Made by a program: the position numbers and the translations under genes | The notes under the pieces: model-generated | Told to the model about the DNA's origin: nothing | What the model saw: only the letters and a program-made list of their open reading frames with translations | Databases searched by the model: none | In this document: piece after piece, positions 28,981 through 37,914 of the stretch | How the letters are laid out: each line of letters starts with the position of its first letter | Numbering within the stretch: position 1 is the stretch's first letter | From: the human T2T-CHM13v2.0 reference genome, Homo sapiens | DNA length: 64,000 nt | Reading direction: 5' to 3' (one strand) | Assembly: GCF_009914755.1 (NCBI RefSeq) | Contig: NC_060936.1

Positions 28981-30391
28981 AGTGCTTTATTTTTGTGTTG
29001 AAAAGCTTACATTAACAATAATGATCTGGACAGTGTCCTTTTAAAAATAATCCCTGCTTACTGACTGCTGTTCCAATAATAAGAATTTAAGTCAAAAGAT
29101 ATGTAACAAAATCCCTTAGGATTAGTGATATCTGTGCTGAGGATATCTGTGCACATCAACCTTGTAACTATTTTCTAACCACCAGTTTTGGCATTTCAAT
29201 GGGAGAGGGTCCAAGACAGAAAACTCTGAGTTTATTAATATTTTACAGTTTTGAAATTTAAACCTTAGGACTAGGATTCTACTGCCATTCTAGTCCATCA
29301 TGGGTTAAAGGGATAGTGTTTATAAGTAGCCATGGAACAAGGATTCACAGTGCCCTCTTTAAAGCCAATCCTAAATAAATATTTAGCTCAGCACTATGCT
29401 ACCGAAGCCTCAAATAAAATCAATATTCTCCTCAAAAGAAATGCTTGATATATTTAAAACAAAACCTGGATGTAAATATGAGTTGTCATTCTTGAAAGTA
29501 AGTTATCTTTTTAAAAACATACAGCTATGCACTTTTAAATGTCCAACATTAAAATGAATATAAATAGTTGTCTTCCTCCCCAAAAATGCCGCAAAAATTA
29601 TTTGTATATTTCTGATGCCTAAAGCATGCAGTGTTTTGCTTAATTCTGTAAATAGACTATGGTTAGGTCTACAGGGTGTGAGCAGTTTGCTTTCTAGCCT
29701 CTGTCGAAGCAACAATAATCCCTAAATCTCAGATATATTTTCTCAATGTCAAGCCTGTTTCTAAAACTAGATACAAAAAAACACTAAAAAGTCATCAGCT
29801 TTACCAACTATGAATGTATATAATATTTTGTGAAAAACACACAACCCTACCTAAACAGATTAATGTTCTTTAAAAGTATTGTACAAAAACATAAAAGTAT
29901 CAAGCCTTGATAAGAGAAAATTATCTGAGTCAGTTAATACCAATTACATTACTGAAACATCAGATAGATGATGGAAGGTGCAAAATAATCCTTTGCTATG
30001 TTCACTTTCTCCTCTAAAATAAAGACAAGGCATTTATACATGCAAGAAATAGAAATTAGCTACCAGAAAAATGCTGTGCCCATCCATATTCAGAGCATAG
30101 ATTAAGAATAAAATAGTTTTTTAATTGATTCTACCACATTTTTTATTTTTTTATTTTTTATTTATTTTTATTTTTTTATTTTTTTTATTATACTTTAAGT
30201 TTTAGGGTACATGTGCACATTGTGCAGGTTAGTTACATATGTATACATGTGCCATGCTGGTGCGCTGCACCCACTAACTGGTCATCTAGCATTAGGTATA
30301 TCTCCCAATGCTATCCCTTCCCCCTCCCCCCACCCAACAACAGTCCCCAGAGTGTGATATTCCCCTTCCTGTGTCCATGTGATCTCATTGT

Positions 30392-34246
<3,855 letters not shown>

Positions 34247-34282
34247 TTAGTCGATGCAGTTTCTTCCTAGTCTCCATGGTCT

Positions 34283-35300
34283 TTACATTTTGGCATGATT
34301 TTGCAGCGGCTGGTGCCAGTTGTTCCTTTCCATGTTTAGCACTTCCTTCAGGAGCTCTTTTAGGGCGGGCCTGGTGGTGACAAAATCTCTCAGCATTTGC
34401 TTGTCTGTAAAGTATTTTATTTCTCCTTCGCTTATGAAGTTTAGTTTGGCTGGATATGAAATTCTGGGTCGAAAATTGTTTTCTTTAAGAATGTTGAATA
34501 TTGGCCCCCACTCTCTTCTGGCTTGTAGGGTTTCTGCCGAGAGATCCGCTGTTAGTCTGATGGGCTTCCCTTTGTGGGTAACCCAACCTTTCTCTCTGGC
34601 TGCCCTTAACATTTTTTCCTTCATTTCAACTTTGGTGAATCTGACAATTATGTGTCTTGGAGTTGCTCTTCTCGAGGAGTATCTTTGTGGCATTCTCTGT
34701 ATTTCCTGAATCTGAATGTTGGCCTGCCTTGCTAGATTGGGGAAGTTCTCCTGGATAATATCCTGCAGAGTGTTTTCCAACTTGGTTCCATTCTCCCCAT
34801 CACTTTCAGGTACACCAGTCAGACGTAGACTTGGTCTTTTCACATAGTCCCATATTTCTTGGAAGCTTTGCTCATTTCTTTTTATTCTTTTTTCTCTAAA
34901 CTTCCCTTCTCGCTTCATTTCATTCATTTCATCTTCTATTGCTGATACCCTTTCTTCCAGTTGATCGCATTGGCTCCTGAGGCTTCTGCATTCTTCACGT
35001 AGTTCTCGAGCCTTGGTTTTCAGCTCCATCAGCTCCTTTAAGCACTTCTCTGTATTGGTTATTCTAGTTATACATTCTTCTAAATTTTTTTTCAAAGTTT
35101 TCAACTTCTTTGCCTTTGGTTTGAATGTCCTCCCGTAGCTCAGAGTAATTTGATCGTCTGAAGCCTTCTTCTCTCAGCTCGTCAAAGTCATTCTCCATCC
35201 AGCTTTGTTCCGTTGCTGGTGAGGAACTGCGTTCCTTTGGAGGAGGAGAGGCACTCTGCTTTTTAGAGTTTCCAGTTTTTCTGTTCTGTTTTTTCCCCAT
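34283..35300 (-). pseudogene. L1 ORF1 (RNA-binding chaperone), frameshifted by +1 in the homopolymer at 35085-35092
   Basis: MGKKQNRKTGNSK... from 35300 and ...LQNHAKM ending at 34283; span 1018 = 339x3+1; the frame changes at an 8-T run. Confidence 0.95.
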
Positions 35301-36197
35301 CTTTGTGGTTTTATCTACTTTTGGTCTTTGATGATGGTGATGTACAGATGGGTTTTTGGTGTGGATGTCCTTTCTGTTTGTTAGTTTTCCTTCTAACAGA
35401 CAGGACCCTCAGCTGCAGGTCTGTTGGAGTACGCTGCCGTGTGAGGTGTCAGTGTGCCCCTGCTGGGGGGTGCCTCCCAGTTAGGCCGCTCGGGGGTCAG
35501 GGACACACTTGAGGAGGCAGTCTGCCCGTTCTCAGATCTGCAGCTGCGTGCTGGGAGAACCACTGCTCTCTTCAAAGCTGTCAGACAGGGACATTTAAGT
35601 CTGCAGAGGTTACTGCTGTCTTTTTGTTTGTCTGTGCCCTGCCCCCAGAGGTGGAGCCTACAGAGGCAGGCAGGCCTCCTTGAGCTGTGGTGGGCTCCAC
35701 CCAGTTCGAGCTTCCCGGCTGCTTTGTTTACCTAAGCAAGCCCGGGCAATGGCGGGCGCCCCTCCCCCAGCCTGGCTGCCGCCTTGCAGTTTGATCTCAG
35801 ACTGCTGTGCTAGCAATCAGCGAGACTACGTGGGCGTAGGACCCGCCGAGCCAGGTGCGGGATATAATCTCGTGGTGCGCCATTTTTTAAGCCGGTCGGA
35901 AAAGCGCAGTATTCGGGAGGGAGTGACCCGATTTTCCAGGTGCGTCTGTTACCCCTTTCTTTGACTCCGAAAGGGAACTCCCTGACCCCTTGCGCTTCCC
36001 AAGTGAGGCAATGCCTCGCCCCTGTTTCGGCTCGCGCACGGTGCGCACACCCACTGACCTGCTCCCACTGTCTGGCACTCCCTAGTGAGATGAACCCGGT
36101 ACCTCAGATGGAAATGCAGAAATCACCTGTCTTCTGCGTCACTCACGCTGGGAGCTGTAGACAGCACTGTTCCTATTCGGCCATCTTGGCTCCTCCC
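35301..36197. promoter_or_regulatory. L1 5' UTR CpG-rich bidirectional promoter: sense promoter (- strand, YY1 site 36179-36187) and antisense promoter (+ strand, approx 35600-35820)
   Basis: Most CpG-dense segment of the window; AAGATGGCC YY1 core intact; ASP position taken from established L1 5' UTR architecture (roughly nt 400-600). Confidence 0.85.
35749..35964 (+). CDS. ORF0: L1 ORF0, intact 71 aa (MAGAPPPAWLPPCSLISDCCASNQRD...TRFSRCVCYPFL)
   Basis: ATG at 35749 in strong Kozak context (gcaATGG); open to TGA at 35962-35964; splice donors CAG/GTGCGG after 35854 and CAG/GTGCGT after 35939. Confidence 0.85.
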   Translation: MAGAPPPAWLPPCSLISDCCASNQRDYVGVGPAEPGAGYNLVVRHFLSRSEKRSIREGVTRFSRCVCYPFL

Positions 36198-36240
36198 TGA
36201 TTCTACCACCAAGAATAAAATAGTTGTTTGTCCCCTACAG

Positions 36241-36378
36241 TAGAACAAGTTTGCCCATTCATCCTTGTGATAGATATGCATGCAAAACCAAAATGAAATC
36301 AAATCCCCACAGATGGCTCGTAAGTCAAAAACACTGTTTAATTCTTTCACTGCATCCCTTTGGGAAGCCTGGCCCTTG
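36241..36378 (+). other. SYT1: Non-coding 5'-UTR exon (alternative, L1-proximal), probably SYT1; may extend 5' to or into the L1 when used as first exon
   Basis: Acceptor tttgtcccctacAG (36239-36240), donor TTG/GTAAGT (36379-36384); sequence recalled from a SYT1 mRNA 5' UTR. Confidence 0.7.
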
Positions 36379-37848
36379 GTAAGTAGTAATGTACAATGTA
36401 TATAGTGTCAACTATTCTCTTATTTTTTAATAGAATGTCTTTGTCTTATTTAACAGGTTTTTTTCCCATATTTCTTGTAAGAAGCTCTGTGTCACTGTTT
36501 ACCTTAATGTGTATGTCCACAGAATCTTGCTCTAGTTTTTGTTTTAATAAAAAAGAAGTGTCCGTATACTAAAACTATACAAAGCATATCTAAAATTGAT
36601 TATGGCTCTAAGTCATGTTTTTAGAGGCAGTCAGGCAAACCTAGGTGCATTTTAACATTGCTCTTCCAAATGGATTTTACTAAGAAACAGTTGAGTTTCA
36701 AGCAGGAATAAAGGAAAAGCAGATCTTGGAGATTTAACTGTTGAGCAGATGCAGTAAATGAGGTTTTGGAAATACCGCTGTCACTTTAGATATTTTATGC
36801 TGAGTTACCTATGTGACCCAATAGCTAGAGCTGCTGATATTAAAATATTTTTGTAATTCTGTTGAAAATAGATGCCATGAGAACTCTTAAAAACAGAGTA
36901 ACATACTTATTATAAGACCTATTTTAAATATTTCATTCTTTCCTCATTTTCATGATACCTAAATTTTTTGAAGACTGAAAATGATGAGAACTTATATAAA
37001 AAGGTACTTGTCTGTAGCATCATGGAAATTTTCATTTATGAGTTGTTAACATGTCAAACCAAATCAGAAATTCCTGATATCTTTATTACATTAAAGCAAT
37101 TCTTAATGTTGCCTCTTGAGAAGGGTTTAATTTTTTTACTCTTTAAACTGAAAGTTTATCTTTTTTATGCAATGACGTGCAATCATTTTTCTCTTAATTC
37201 CTGATGGGCTTGTAATATATACATATTTATTTGTGTGTGTATGTACCTACATATCTATTAATATGTATATAAACATGTATATTTAAATACATGTATGTTT
37301 ATCCTATGTACTAGAATAGTTAGTAGGTTATATCTAGATATTGATTAGCTTCTGAAAATAGGCAAATATGTATAACATATTGAGGTGTTTCTAACATCGG
37401 TGAAAAATATAAAACTTAAAAGTAACATGGGGCTGTACAAGGTTGATTTGTAATAGTCATATTGGTAATTGAGACAGCACCAGATATTTAATTGACTAAG
37501 AATCATGTGATTTATTTCTTAATAAATGTAATATTCTCTAATGTCTGCCTAGATTAGTGTTACTCTAATTTCAAATTAAAACACTATAGAAAGCATAATT
37601 GACTTTTCATAAAATCAGTATATAAACTATCCACAGACTCTCAATCTCTAGCTCATCAAACAACTTTAAAATCCAAACTATCTGTATTATATATACTAAA
37701 TATGGATATATATGACATTATTTTTATTGGAATATATAGTAAAATTTTAAGTAGAAATATTAAATAATAAAATTAACATATTTATGACAAAAATGATTCT
37801 GAACTATGTGTAGTCAAGTAACCTCTGTATATATTGTTTTCCTTTTAG

Positions 37849-37914
37849 AAAAACAGAATAATTCTGAAAGAAAGAAAACAAAGAAAAACATACTCCAGAA
37901 TTCCTAATAGAACA
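37849..37914 (+). other. SYT1: 66-nt non-coding 5'-UTR exon, probably SYT1
   Basis: Acceptor ttgttttccttttAG (37847-37848), donor ACA/GTAAGT (37915-37920); AAAAACAGAATAATTCTG...CCAGAATTCCTAATAGAACA recalled as lying just upstream of the SYT1 ATG-containing exon. Confidence 0.8.

What the first reader, a model, noticed from the sequence alone, without database searches (positions are those of the whole stretch)
35749..37851. Predicted 109-aa ORF0-fusion peptide whose stop codon is built by the exon junction
Seen by manual splicing and translation: ORF0 ATG 35749 to donor 2 (35939) gives 63 codons + AG. Joined to acceptor 36241, the frame stays open across the whole 138-nt exon (SRTSLPIHPCDRYACKTKMKSNPHRWLVSQKHCLILSLHPFGKPGP) and ends at TG|A on joining exon 37849. 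The other combinations give 53 aa (SD1->36241), 54 aa (SD1->37849, tail EKQNNSERKKTKKNILQNS) and 67 aa (SD2->37849). Known: ORF0 forms fusions with proximal exons through these donors. Inference: a locus-specific microprotein or tumour-antigen candidate with a unique 46-aa tail, made only when this L1 is derepressed.
Basis: partly seen in the sequence, partly recalled or inferred. Interest (0 to 1): 0.8.

Follow-up and report, generated by a model that had tools for sequence, protein, structure and literature searches.

The report
ORF0 upstream reading frame on L1PA2-SYT1
The predicted 109-residue peptide is correct arithmetic on the already published L1PA2-driven SYT1 transcript, but the published transcript skips the exon that the peptide needs and would instead give a 67-codon upstream reading frame ahead of normal SYT1.

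Summary
ORF0 starts at 35749. Donor 1 ends an exon at 35854 and donor 2 at 35939. The fusion peptides are 109, 53, 54 and 67 aa, and the stop TG|A is built across the 36378|37849 junction.

- **Acceptor:** it is a tandem CAG|TAG. RefSeq uses 36244, which gives 108 aa.
- **Chance:** an open 46-codon frame arises by chance in 6-10% of comparable stretches.
- **Identity of the locus:** this is the published L1PA2-SYT1 antisense-promoter transcript. Its primers and CpG sites map exactly onto the window.
- **Published structure:** the RT-PCR product size, the primer design, the 10-exon model and independent split reads all join donor 2 directly to SYT1 exon 3 at 37849. The 138-nt exon is skipped.
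- **Consequence:** ORF0 is then the only upstream AUG. It opens a 67-codon frame that ends 70 nt before the SYT1 AUG, and it cannot fuse to SYT1.
- **Expression:** the transcript is also made in normal neurons.
- **Tail:** its last 28 residues can be encoded without the L1.

The 109/108-aa form remains an unsupported minor-isoform hypothesis. Interest is low.

The parts
30174..36197 (-). Full-length L1PA2 (6,024 nt) in SYT1 intron 2, antisense to SYT1. ORF1 and ORF2 are each interrupted.
   Evidence: The published hg38 coordinates chr12:79039622-79045645 map here with hg38 = window + 79009448, verified on 4 of 4 published CpG sites. The ORF pieces are 78+248 aa and 692+572 aa, with L1 ORF1 and endonuclease/reverse-transcriptase Pfam domains.
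35726..35939 (+). First exon of the L1PA2-SYT1 transcript, from the antisense-promoter start to donor 2. The 5' end is approximate.
   Evidence: EST starts in Criscione 2016, supplementary file 3, map to 35726, 35734 and 35812 (the hg19-hg38 offset is recalled or inferred). Published forward primers lie at 35778-35870, and one of them spans donor 1 unspliced.
35749..35964 (+). L1 ORF0: 71 codons plus stop when unspliced.
   Evidence: Translation. It is the first ATG after 35365 on this strand. The same ATG context is kept in 29 of 29 nearest copies. No Pfam family matches.
35852..35860 (+). ORF0 splice donor 1, CAG|GTGCGG. Exon end 35854, phase 1.
   Evidence: 7 of 9 consensus positions. The GT is kept in 29 of 29 copies.
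35937..35945 (+). ORF0 splice donor 2, CAG|GTGCGT. Exon end 35939, phase 2. This is the donor used in the published transcript.
   Evidence: 8 of 9 consensus positions. The published '200 bp' products fit only donor 2 -> 37849, which predicts 210-221 bp. The GT is kept in 27 of 29 copies.
35821..36045 (.). CpG island whose hypomethylation correlates with L1PA2-SYT1 expression.
   Evidence: Published chr12:79045269-79045493, mapped.
36239..36243 (+). Tandem (NAGNAG) acceptor CAG|TAG.
   Evidence: plus the hub annotation.
36244..36378 (+). Alternative 5'-UTR cassette exon of SYT1. It is absent from the selected transcript and from the published L1PA2-SYT1 model. It is the source of the 45/46-aa tail.
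   Evidence: Hub annotation; translation; single copy in the genome; donor TTG|GTAAGT.
36293..36378 (+). A 28-codon upstream frame inside the cassette exon.
37849..37914 (+). SYT1 exon 3 (5' UTR), the documented splice target of the L1 exon. It is closed in the two frames that ORF0 can reach.
   Evidence: Published reverse primers lie at 37873-37914. 'Exon_3' is named in the paper's supplementary table. An independent paper also names the third exon of SYT1.
36198..36225 (.). Flank between the L1 5' end and the cassette acceptor. It holds a 12-nt repeat (36198-36209) and a 15-nt repeat (36211-36225), whose partners lie at 30127-30138 and 30104-30118.

Best explanation
The locus is the known L1PA2-SYT1 alternative promoter. 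A full-length, coding-dead L1PA2 sits antisense in SYT1 intron 2. Its antisense promoter starts transcripts about 15-23 nt upstream of the ORF0 AUG. ORF0 donor 2 (35939) is spliced directly to SYT1 exon 3 (37849), skipping the nearby 135/138-nt cassette exon.

In that mRNA ORF0 is the only upstream AUG and has a strong context. It opens a 67-codon upstream reading frame made of 63 ORF0 codons, one junction codon and three exon-3 codons. The frame stops 70 nt before the SYT1 AUG and is in a different frame from SYT1.

Both donors lead into closed frames of exon 3, so ORF0 cannot be fused to SYT1. SYT1 protein from this mRNA must therefore come from one of three routes: leaky scanning past ORF0, reinitiation after it, or starts downstream of the ORF0 AUG.

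The 109-aa peptide (108 aa with the RefSeq acceptor) needs cassette-exon inclusion in an L1-initiated transcript. It is at most a minor isoform, and its open frame is a chance property of a 5'-UTR exon.

Shown: the anatomy, the frames and the mapping of the published reagents. Taken from print: promoter activity, the junction and the tissues. Inferred: translation of ORF0 at this locus and its effect on SYT1 translation.
For: **The locus is the published one.** Twelve published primers were tested. The ten that should lie in the window each match once, and the other two belong to SYT1 exon 4 outside it. Four of four published CpG sites fall on CG, and the L1 ends match.

**The junction is donor 2 -> exon 3.**
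- The paper reports products 'at 200 bp', confirmed by Sanger sequencing. Across the four primer pairs the models predict 210-221 bp for donor 2 -> 37849, 125-136 bp for donor 1 -> 37849, and 260-271 or 345-356 bp with the cassette.
- One exon-1 primer (35850-35870) spans donor 1 unspliced.
- The model has exons 1-10 and splices into 'exon_3' from 'intron_2'.
- Its 'exon 3' primer lies in the SYT1 exon that holds the start codon, so no cassette exon fits between.
- Nanopore reads are said to confirm all the predicted exons.

**Frames.**

**ORF0 is typical of the family.** Of the 29 nearest other copies, 29 keep the ATG and its context, 27 stay open for at least 63 aa, 29 keep the donor 1 GT, 27 keep the donor 2 GT, and 24 keep all the features.

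**Promoter activity.** Deleting the L1 left 2.6%, 11.2% and 53.7% of luciferase activity in three breast cancer lines. Methylation and expression correlate at R = -0.73. The transcript carries H3K4me3 and long reads in neurons.

**SYT1 protein is made.** SYT1 was detected by western blot after the cloned transcript was expressed.
Against: - I could not see the gel, the Sanger trace, the sashimi plot or the long-read figures. [quoted passage not shown]
- The cassette exon has a good acceptor and a consensus donor, and lies only 301-304 nt from donor 2. Some inclusion is therefore plausible, especially in neurons.
- No data on translation of ORF0 at this locus were available.
- One of the three ESTs that start at the antisense promoter begins downstream of the ORF0 AUG. 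The paper's predicted transcript start was shorter than the long reads showed. The clone that gave SYT1 protein may therefore have lacked the ORF0 AUG.
- The EST mapping uses an hg19-hg38 offset that I recalled or inferred.
Confidence: 0.75

Rival explanations
1. One reading: donor 2 is spliced to the cassette exon (36241 or 36244) in a meaningful share of L1-initiated transcripts. The resulting 109/108-aa basic peptide (about 12 kDa, pI about 9.7) is translated and serves as a locus-specific microprotein or tumour antigen.
For: - The frame arithmetic holds.
- The cassette exon is a real annotated exon (hub annotation) with usable splice sites.
- The tail is single-copy in the genome.
- The tail would give detectable tryptic peptides of 10 and 15 residues.
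- ORF0 fusions to nearby exons are an accepted class, as cited.
Against: - Every description of the L1PA2-SYT1 transcript that I could read joins the L1 exon to exon 3.
- The open frame is within chance, at 6-10%.
- Neither the tail nor ORF0 matches any Pfam family.
- The stop lies 65 nt upstream of the next exon junction, with further junctions beyond it. By the 50-55-nt rule (established knowledge, recalled), such an mRNA is a candidate for nonsense-mediated decay.
- The transcript is also made in normal neurons.
- Twenty-eight of the 46 tail residues can be encoded without the L1.
Confidence: 0.07
2. The L1 acts as a promoter only. ORF0 at this locus is essentially not translated, because starts lie at or downstream of the AUG or so close to the cap that scanning ribosomes pass it. 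None of the four peptides then exists, and ORF0 has no effect on SYT1 output.
For: - One of the three ESTs at the antisense promoter starts 63 nt downstream of the AUG, and the other two leave only 15-23 nt of leader.
- By Kozak's work (recalled), very short leaders favour leaky scanning.
- SYT1 protein is made from the cloned transcript.
- Two further ESTs start at L1 positions 15-23, beyond both donors.
Against: - The AUG has G at -3 and G at +4, and it is the first AUG for any start between 35366 and 35748.
- Long reads gave longer 5' ends than the predicted start.
- ORF0 translation from other loci is reported by Denli 2015, as cited. I did not see that paper.
Confidence: 0.15

Closest known systems
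L1PA2-SYT1 onco-exaptation / L1 chimera (Wang 2023, PMC10696462; Jiang 2019, PMC6486989; Garza 2023, PMC10619931)
   Same: It is the same element, the same antisense promoter and the same first exon. The published primers, CpG sites and L1 coordinates all map onto the window.
   Different: In the parts of those papers that I read, the upstream reading frames are not analysed. Wang 2023 speaks of a 'fusion protein', whereas the sequence shows that ORF0 cannot be joined in frame to SYT1.
ORF0-proximal-exon fusions of primate L1 (Denli 2015; not held, known here only through citing papers)
   Same: The ORF lies antisense in the L1 5' UTR, is 71 aa long, has a strong AUG context, and carries two internal donors that splice to downstream host exons.
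   Different: Here both reachable frames close within the SYT1 5' UTR. The product is therefore a short upstream frame, not a fusion to host coding sequence. I could not check whether SYT1 is among Denli's 57 reported fusions.
L1PA2-MET (L1-MET) antisense-promoter transcript
   Same: An intronic antisense L1PA2, active when hypomethylated, splices into the next host exon in bladder, colon and breast cancers.
   Different: According to the papers cited, L1-MET yields a MET isoform that starts inside the gene. L1PA2-SYT1 enters upstream of the SYT1 start codon and keeps the whole SYT1 coding sequence.
LINC01876 L1PA2 promoter with a disabled ORF0 start (Garza 2023)
   Same: An L1PA2 antisense promoter is used in the human brain, and the state of the ORF0 start codon is discussed as being relevant.
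   Different: At LINC01876 the ORF0 start codon is lost in humans. At SYT1 it is intact.

Membership tests
L1 ORF0 | Lies on the antisense strand of the 5' UTR of a young primate L1 (L1PA1-8) | tested here: met
   The ATG is at L1 position about 449 on the antisense strand of a full-length element that the papers call L1PA2. Garza 2023 puts the ORF0 start-codon change at L1 position 451.
L1 ORF0 | AUG in a strong context, opening a frame of about 70-71 aa | tested here: met
   71 aa, with G at -3 and G at +4. The length of 70-71 aa is given. The context is identical in 29 of 29 nearest copies, and 20 of those 29 also have 71 aa.
L1 ORF0 | Two splice donors inside the ORF | tested here: met
   35854|35855 and 35939|35940. 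The donors sit at the same positions and phases in the copies: the donor 1 GT is kept in 29 of 29, the donor 2 GT in 27 of 29, and donor 2 is in phase 2 in 28 of 29.
ORF0-exon fusion transcript | An observed junction between an ORF0 donor and a host exon | tested here: met
   Met for donor 2 -> 37849 only, through published RT-PCR, Sanger sequencing, long reads and split reads. For donor 2 -> 36241/36244 no evidence was found and no read data were available to me.
ORF0-exon fusion protein (fusion to host coding sequence) | The ORF0 frame runs on into the host protein | tested here: not met
   Both frames reachable from the donors stop in exon 3 or at its junction. The donor 1 form is in the SYT1 frame but is closed by TAA TAG 24 nt before the AUG.
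Upstream open reading frame (uORF) | An AUG upstream of the main start, ending before or overlapping it, on the same mRNA | tested here: met
   In the leader built from window exons and exon 4, ORF0 is the only upstream AUG, spans 67 codons, and stops 70 nt before the SYT1 AUG.
Upstream open reading frame (uORF) | It is translated and alters translation of the main ORF | not testable with these tools
   This needs ribosome profiling or a reporter assay.
Tumour-specific antigen | Expression restricted to tumours | tested here: not met
   Tested from the literature only. The transcript is nearly absent from normal tissue adjacent to bladder tumours. It is present in normal neurons and in ESTs from normal brain, thalamus and cerebellum.
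Tumour-specific antigen | The peptide is made and presented on HLA | not testable with these tools
   No proteome or immunopeptidome data were at hand. Searches found no report on this.

The most novel reading that the evidence does not exclude
ORF0 of this ape-specific L1PA2 acts as a translational gate on SYT1, the main calcium sensor for fast transmitter release. In neurons and tumours that use the L1 promoter, SYT1 output would depend on where transcription starts relative to the ORF0 AUG and on whether the cassette exon is included. With the cassette, the frame grows to 108 codons and four more upstream AUGs are added, two of which open frames that overlap the SYT1 start. Under this reading the ORF0-leader peptides of 67 or 108 aa are really made, giving a lineage-specific layer of control and a locus-tagged peptide.
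Probability: 0.1. Interest if true: 0.55.

Novelty: new member of a known kind. Interest (0 to 1): 0.22.

Why it matters
L1PA2-SYT1 is reported as one of the most frequent L1-driven oncogene transcripts in bladder cancer, and it is also seen in breast and colorectal cancer. It is used in normal human neurons too. What its leader encodes bears on two practical points. First, the transcript cannot make an ORF0-SYT1 fusion protein, although one paper uses the words 'fusion protein'. Second, any antigen search should start from the 67-aa form that the documented junction predicts, and should take the brain expression into account. The specific 109-aa peptide adds little. It is a paper product of a chance open frame in an exon that the known transcript skips.

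Tried and rejected
- **Papers not held:** Denli 2015, Jang 2019 and Shah 2023. I therefore could not check whether SYT1 is among Denli's ORF0 fusions, or how Shah classed its protein product.
- **Supplements:** As a result I saw only 5 of the 6 SYT1 rows in Criscione's table, and not its column headers. Each SYT1 row I saw ends in 'yes no', which I could not interpret. Table S3 of Garza 2023 and the unread supplements may bear on the exon structure.
- **Literature searches:** 'ORF0' with 'SYT1' found 3 papers. In the passages I read of the two published ones (the third, a preprint version of Garza 2023, I did not open), none describes an ORF0-SYT1 leader peptide. Searches for ORF0 with immunopeptidome, Ribo-seq, HLA or neoantigen terms returned only reviews or unrelated papers.
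- **Pfam:** no family for ORF0 or for the tail.
- **Source element:** I looked for a source L1 carrying the same junction of L1 5' end plus 12 nt. The pattern occurs only at this locus, allowing up to 1 mismatch.
- **Machine outages:** several genome calls did not complete while the machine was busy. The 10-kb fetch did not complete. Exon 4 was reached through the repeated primer search instead.
- **Not attempted:** structure or complex prediction of the spliced peptides, because they are joined sequences.
- **Not possible here:** no RNA-seq, Ribo-seq, proteome or other-primate data, so junction use, translation and the age of the cassette exon stay open.
Full report
**1. The observation**

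On the + strand an ATG at 35749, with G at -3 and G at +4, opens a frame of 71 codons when unspliced. Two GT donors lie inside it. CAG|GTGCGG ends an exon at 35854 (106 nt, phase 1). CAG|GTGCGT ends one at 35939 (191 nt, phase 2).

I joined the exons by coordinates in a script. Donor 2 -> 36241-36378 -> 37849 gives 109 aa, with the stop TG|A made across the last junction. Donor 1 -> 36241 gives 53 aa, donor 1 -> 37849 gives 54 aa, and donor 2 -> 37849 gives 67 aa. The 45 full codons of the tail are confirmed by the translate tool.

One correction is needed. The acceptor is a tandem CAG|TAG, and RefSeq places the exon start at 36244. That removes one codon, giving 108 and 52 aa, and changes nothing else.

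**2. Chance**

The exon is 41% G+C. The frame in question is open in 6.2-7.1% of 20,000 shuffles, in 6.7% of 9,124 138-mers drawn from the window, and in 10.1% of 4,115 GC-matched 138-mers. Some frame is open in about 19%. The other two frames of the exon carry three stops each.

A stop made by a junction needs only TG or TA at a phase-2 exon end followed by A (or, after TA, by A or G). Neither feature calls for an explanation beyond chance. The tail and ORF0 match no Pfam family.

**3. What the locus is**

The repeat at 30174-36197 is a full-length L1 on the minus strand. Its ORF1 is in pieces of 78 and 248 aa and its ORF2 in pieces of 692 and 572 aa. The pieces carry the L1 ORF1 domains and the endonuclease and reverse-transcriptase domains.

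It is the published 'L1PA2-SYT1' element. Wang et al. 2023 (PMC10696462; I read sections 11-14, 33 and 36, Table S4, and passages of Table S1) give it as hg38 chr12:79039622-79045645, in intron 2, spliced into exon 3. Three checks tie it to the window:
- With hg38 = window + 79009448, all four of their measured CpG sites fall on CG. The L1 ends fall at 30174 and 36197, exactly 6,024 nt apart.
- Ten of their twelve primers each match the window once, with forward primers at 35778-35870 and reverse primers at 37873-37914.
- The other two primers belong to the next SYT1 exon, outside the window.

**4. What is known about the transcript**

In breast cancer lines, deleting this L1 from a SYT1 promoter construct left 2.6%, 11.2% and 53.7% of luciferase activity. 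The authors attribute the activity to the L1 antisense promoter (PMC6486989, passages).

In bladder cancer lines the transcript was shown by junction reads, RT-PCR, Sanger sequencing, nanopore reads and 5' RACE. It correlates with hypomethylation of a CpG island (R = -0.73) that maps to 35821-36045.

Garza et al. 2023 (PMC10619931, passages) report the same L1PA2 as the start of a SYT1 isoform in normal human brain. They support it with H3K4me3 and long reads and find it only in neurons by single-nucleus RNA-seq.

Criscione et al. 2016 (PMC4908685, supplementary file 3; I saw 5 of 6 rows) list ESTs from brain, thalamus, cerebellum and NT2 cells that start in this L1. SYT1 is also among the genes activated through L1s after DNMT1 loss in neural progenitors (PMC6639357, passage).

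The statement 'made only when this L1 is derepressed' in tumours is therefore too narrow.

**5. Which junction is used**

The text of Wang et al. says that the four primer pairs gave products 'at 200 bp' and that Sanger sequencing matched the prediction. From the primer positions, the predicted product sizes are:

| Splicing model | Predicted product |
|---|---|
| Donor 2 -> 37849 | 210-221 bp |
| Donor 1 -> 37849 | 125-136 bp |
| Donor 1 + cassette | 260-271 bp |
| Donor 2 + cassette | 345-356 bp |

Further points agree with donor 2 -> 37849:
- One of their exon-1 primers (35850-35870) runs across donor 1 unspliced, so their exon 1 extends beyond it.
- Their model has ten exons. The hub gives 11 exons for NM_005639.3, and the target is exon 3, so the L1 exon plus exons 3-11 makes ten, with no room for a cassette.
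- Their 'Exon1-3' reverse primer lies in the exon that holds the SYT1 start codon. Their exon 2 is therefore 37849-37914.
- They state that long reads confirmed all predicted exons.

I saw no figures, so faint extra bands cannot be excluded.

**6. The leader as a whole**

I located SYT1 exon 4 in the same genome through the published primer. It lies at window coordinates 208187-208369. Its AUG follows 17 nt of leader, and its translation begins MVSESHHEALAAPP. With that exon added, the leaders read as follows:

| Leader | Upstream AUGs | ORF0 frame | Stop relative to SYT1 AUG |
|---|---|---|---|
| L1 start -> donor 2 -> exon 3 -> exon 4 | ORF0 only | 67 codons, different frame from SYT1 | 70 nt before |
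| Donor 1 form | ORF0 only | 54 codons, in the SYT1 frame | closed by TAA TAG 24 nt before |
| Cassette form | ORF0 plus four more | 108 codons | 82 nt before |

The four extra upstream AUGs of the cassette form open frames of 6, 62, 28 and 51 codons. The 62- and 51-codon frames overlap the SYT1 AUG by 7 nt.

The last 28 of the 46 tail residues therefore need no L1 at all.

No ATG lies between 35365 and 35749 on this strand, so ORF0 is the first AUG for any start in that span.

ORF0 cannot be fused to SYT1 through either donor. The term 'fusion protein' used in Wang et al. does not fit the sequence. Their western bands near 50 kDa were detected with a SYT1 antibody.

**7. Start sites**

I used an hg19-hg38 offset of 393,780, which is recalled or inferred and was not checked by a tool. 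With it, the five EST starts I saw map to 35726 and 35734 (23 and 15 nt upstream of the AUG), to 35812 (63 nt downstream of it), and to 36175 and 36183 (L1 positions 23 and 15, beyond both donors).

The last two imply a first exon that runs through the cassette sequence without ORF0.

By general rules (Kozak; recalled), a very short leader favours leaky scanning and a long upstream frame disfavours reinitiation. SYT1 output from L1-initiated mRNAs should therefore depend on start-site choice. This is inference.

The stops of the 67- and 108/109-codon frames lie 53 and 65 nt upstream of the exon 3/4 junction. That makes the mRNAs candidates for nonsense-mediated decay under the 50-55-nt rule (recalled).

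**8. Is this ORF0 typical?**

The 213-nt ORF0 stretch has at least 3,160 first-look candidates in the genome, of which 40 were scored. The best other copies are 95-96% identical. That number fits the ~3,200 ORF0 loci quoted.

I examined the 29 best other copies, which were selected by score:
- 29 keep the ATG and its context.
- 27 stay open for at least 63 aa.
- 29 keep the donor 1 GT and 27 keep the donor 2 GT.
- 24 keep all the features together.

This copy shares 55-58 of its first 63 residues with 26 of them. It therefore carries private substitutions that could tag peptides to the locus. The cassette exon and its flanks are single-copy.

**9. Splice-site reading**

Donor 2 matches 8 of 9 consensus positions and donor 1 matches 7 of 9. 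The cassette donor is TTG|GTAAGT. The cassette acceptor has a 60-65% pyrimidine tract, against 75% for exon 3.

Nothing in the sequence forbids donor 2 -> cassette splicing, with an intron of 301-304 nt. The selected SYT1 transcript also skips this exon (hub annotation). I put the chance that the junction exists at 1% or more of L1-initiated transcripts in some tissue at roughly 0.4. I put the chance that the peptide is made at a meaningful level at well under 0.1.

**10. Comparison and novelty**

The kind is known: an L1 antisense-promoter chimera and an ORF0 joined to a nearby exon. The transcript at this locus is also known. In the held library, 'ORF0' and 'SYT1' co-occur in 3 papers. In the passages I read of the two published ones (I did not open the preprint version of Garza 2023), none describes the ORF0-SYT1 leader peptides. 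Denli 2015, which lists 57 ORF0 fusions, was not available.

What is modestly new here is the reading of ORF0 as the single upstream frame of the documented L1PA2-SYT1 mRNA, together with the demonstration that no ORF0-SYT1 fusion is possible. The 109-aa peptide itself is unsupported.

**Verdict**

The thing itself is ordinary and largely already explained. Interest is 0.22.

Noticed in passing
window 36239-36243: The cassette exon has a tandem NAGNAG acceptor (CAG|TAG). The choice adds or drops one codon in every frame that runs through.
   Followed up: partly
window 30104-30138 and 36198-36225: The L1 is flanked by two nested direct repeats in swapped order. A 15-nt repeat lies at 30104-30118 and 36211-36225, and a 12-nt repeat lies at 30127-30138 and 36198-36209, abutting the L1 5' end. 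One reading is a 15-nt target-site duplication plus short 5' and 3' transductions that carry the source element's own duplication. No second copy of the L1-end-plus-12-nt junction exists in this genome, so this stays unexplained.
   Followed up: partly
window 36197-36240: The L1 5' end lies only 42 nt upstream of the cassette acceptor AG. The only yUnAy branch-point candidate in range (CTGAT, A at 36200, 40 nt from the AG) straddles the L1 end and the flank. The insertion may have influenced use of this exon. Testing that needs other-primate sequence, which I did not have.
   Followed up: no
window 36175-36378: Two ESTs listed by Criscione 2016, one from cerebellum, appear to start at L1 positions 15-23 on the antisense strand. 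That is a second start cluster at the very 5' edge of the L1, giving a first exon that reads through the cassette sequence without ORF0. The mapping rests on a recalled hg19-hg38 offset.
   Followed up: partly
window 36276-36378 with exon 3 and exon 4 (L001 1374-1556): The cassette exon brings four upstream AUGs. The frames opened at 36280 (62 codons) and 36313 (51 codons) run through exon 3 and end 7 nt inside the SYT1 coding sequence, overlapping its AUG. Inclusion of the cassette should lower SYT1 translation in any SYT1 mRNA.
   Followed up: partly
window 35854|37849 junction and 37902-37907: Donor 1 -> exon 3 puts ORF0 in the same frame as the SYT1 coding sequence. Only a tandem TAA TAG, 24 nt upstream of the SYT1 AUG, separates them.
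   Followed up: yes
window 36000-36008: A third donor-like site, CAA|GTGAGG (7 of 9 consensus positions, exon end 36002), lies downstream of the ORF0 stop. It could give L1-initiated transcripts that carry the full unspliced 71-aa ORF0.
   Followed up: no
window 30392-35300, minus strand: ORF1 and ORF2 of this L1 are each split into two open pieces, of 78+248 aa and 692+572 aa. The element is therefore not coding-competent, although its 5' UTR promoter region is in use.
   Followed up: partly
L008, L012, L014, L015, L016, L031 (other L1 copies): In 6 of the 29 nearest ORF0 copies the frame runs to 100 aa instead of 71. In 5 of the 6 the donor 2 region differs from the common GTGCGT form, and the sixth has donor 2 out of phase. 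This looks like a subfamily variant with a longer ORF0.
   Followed up: no
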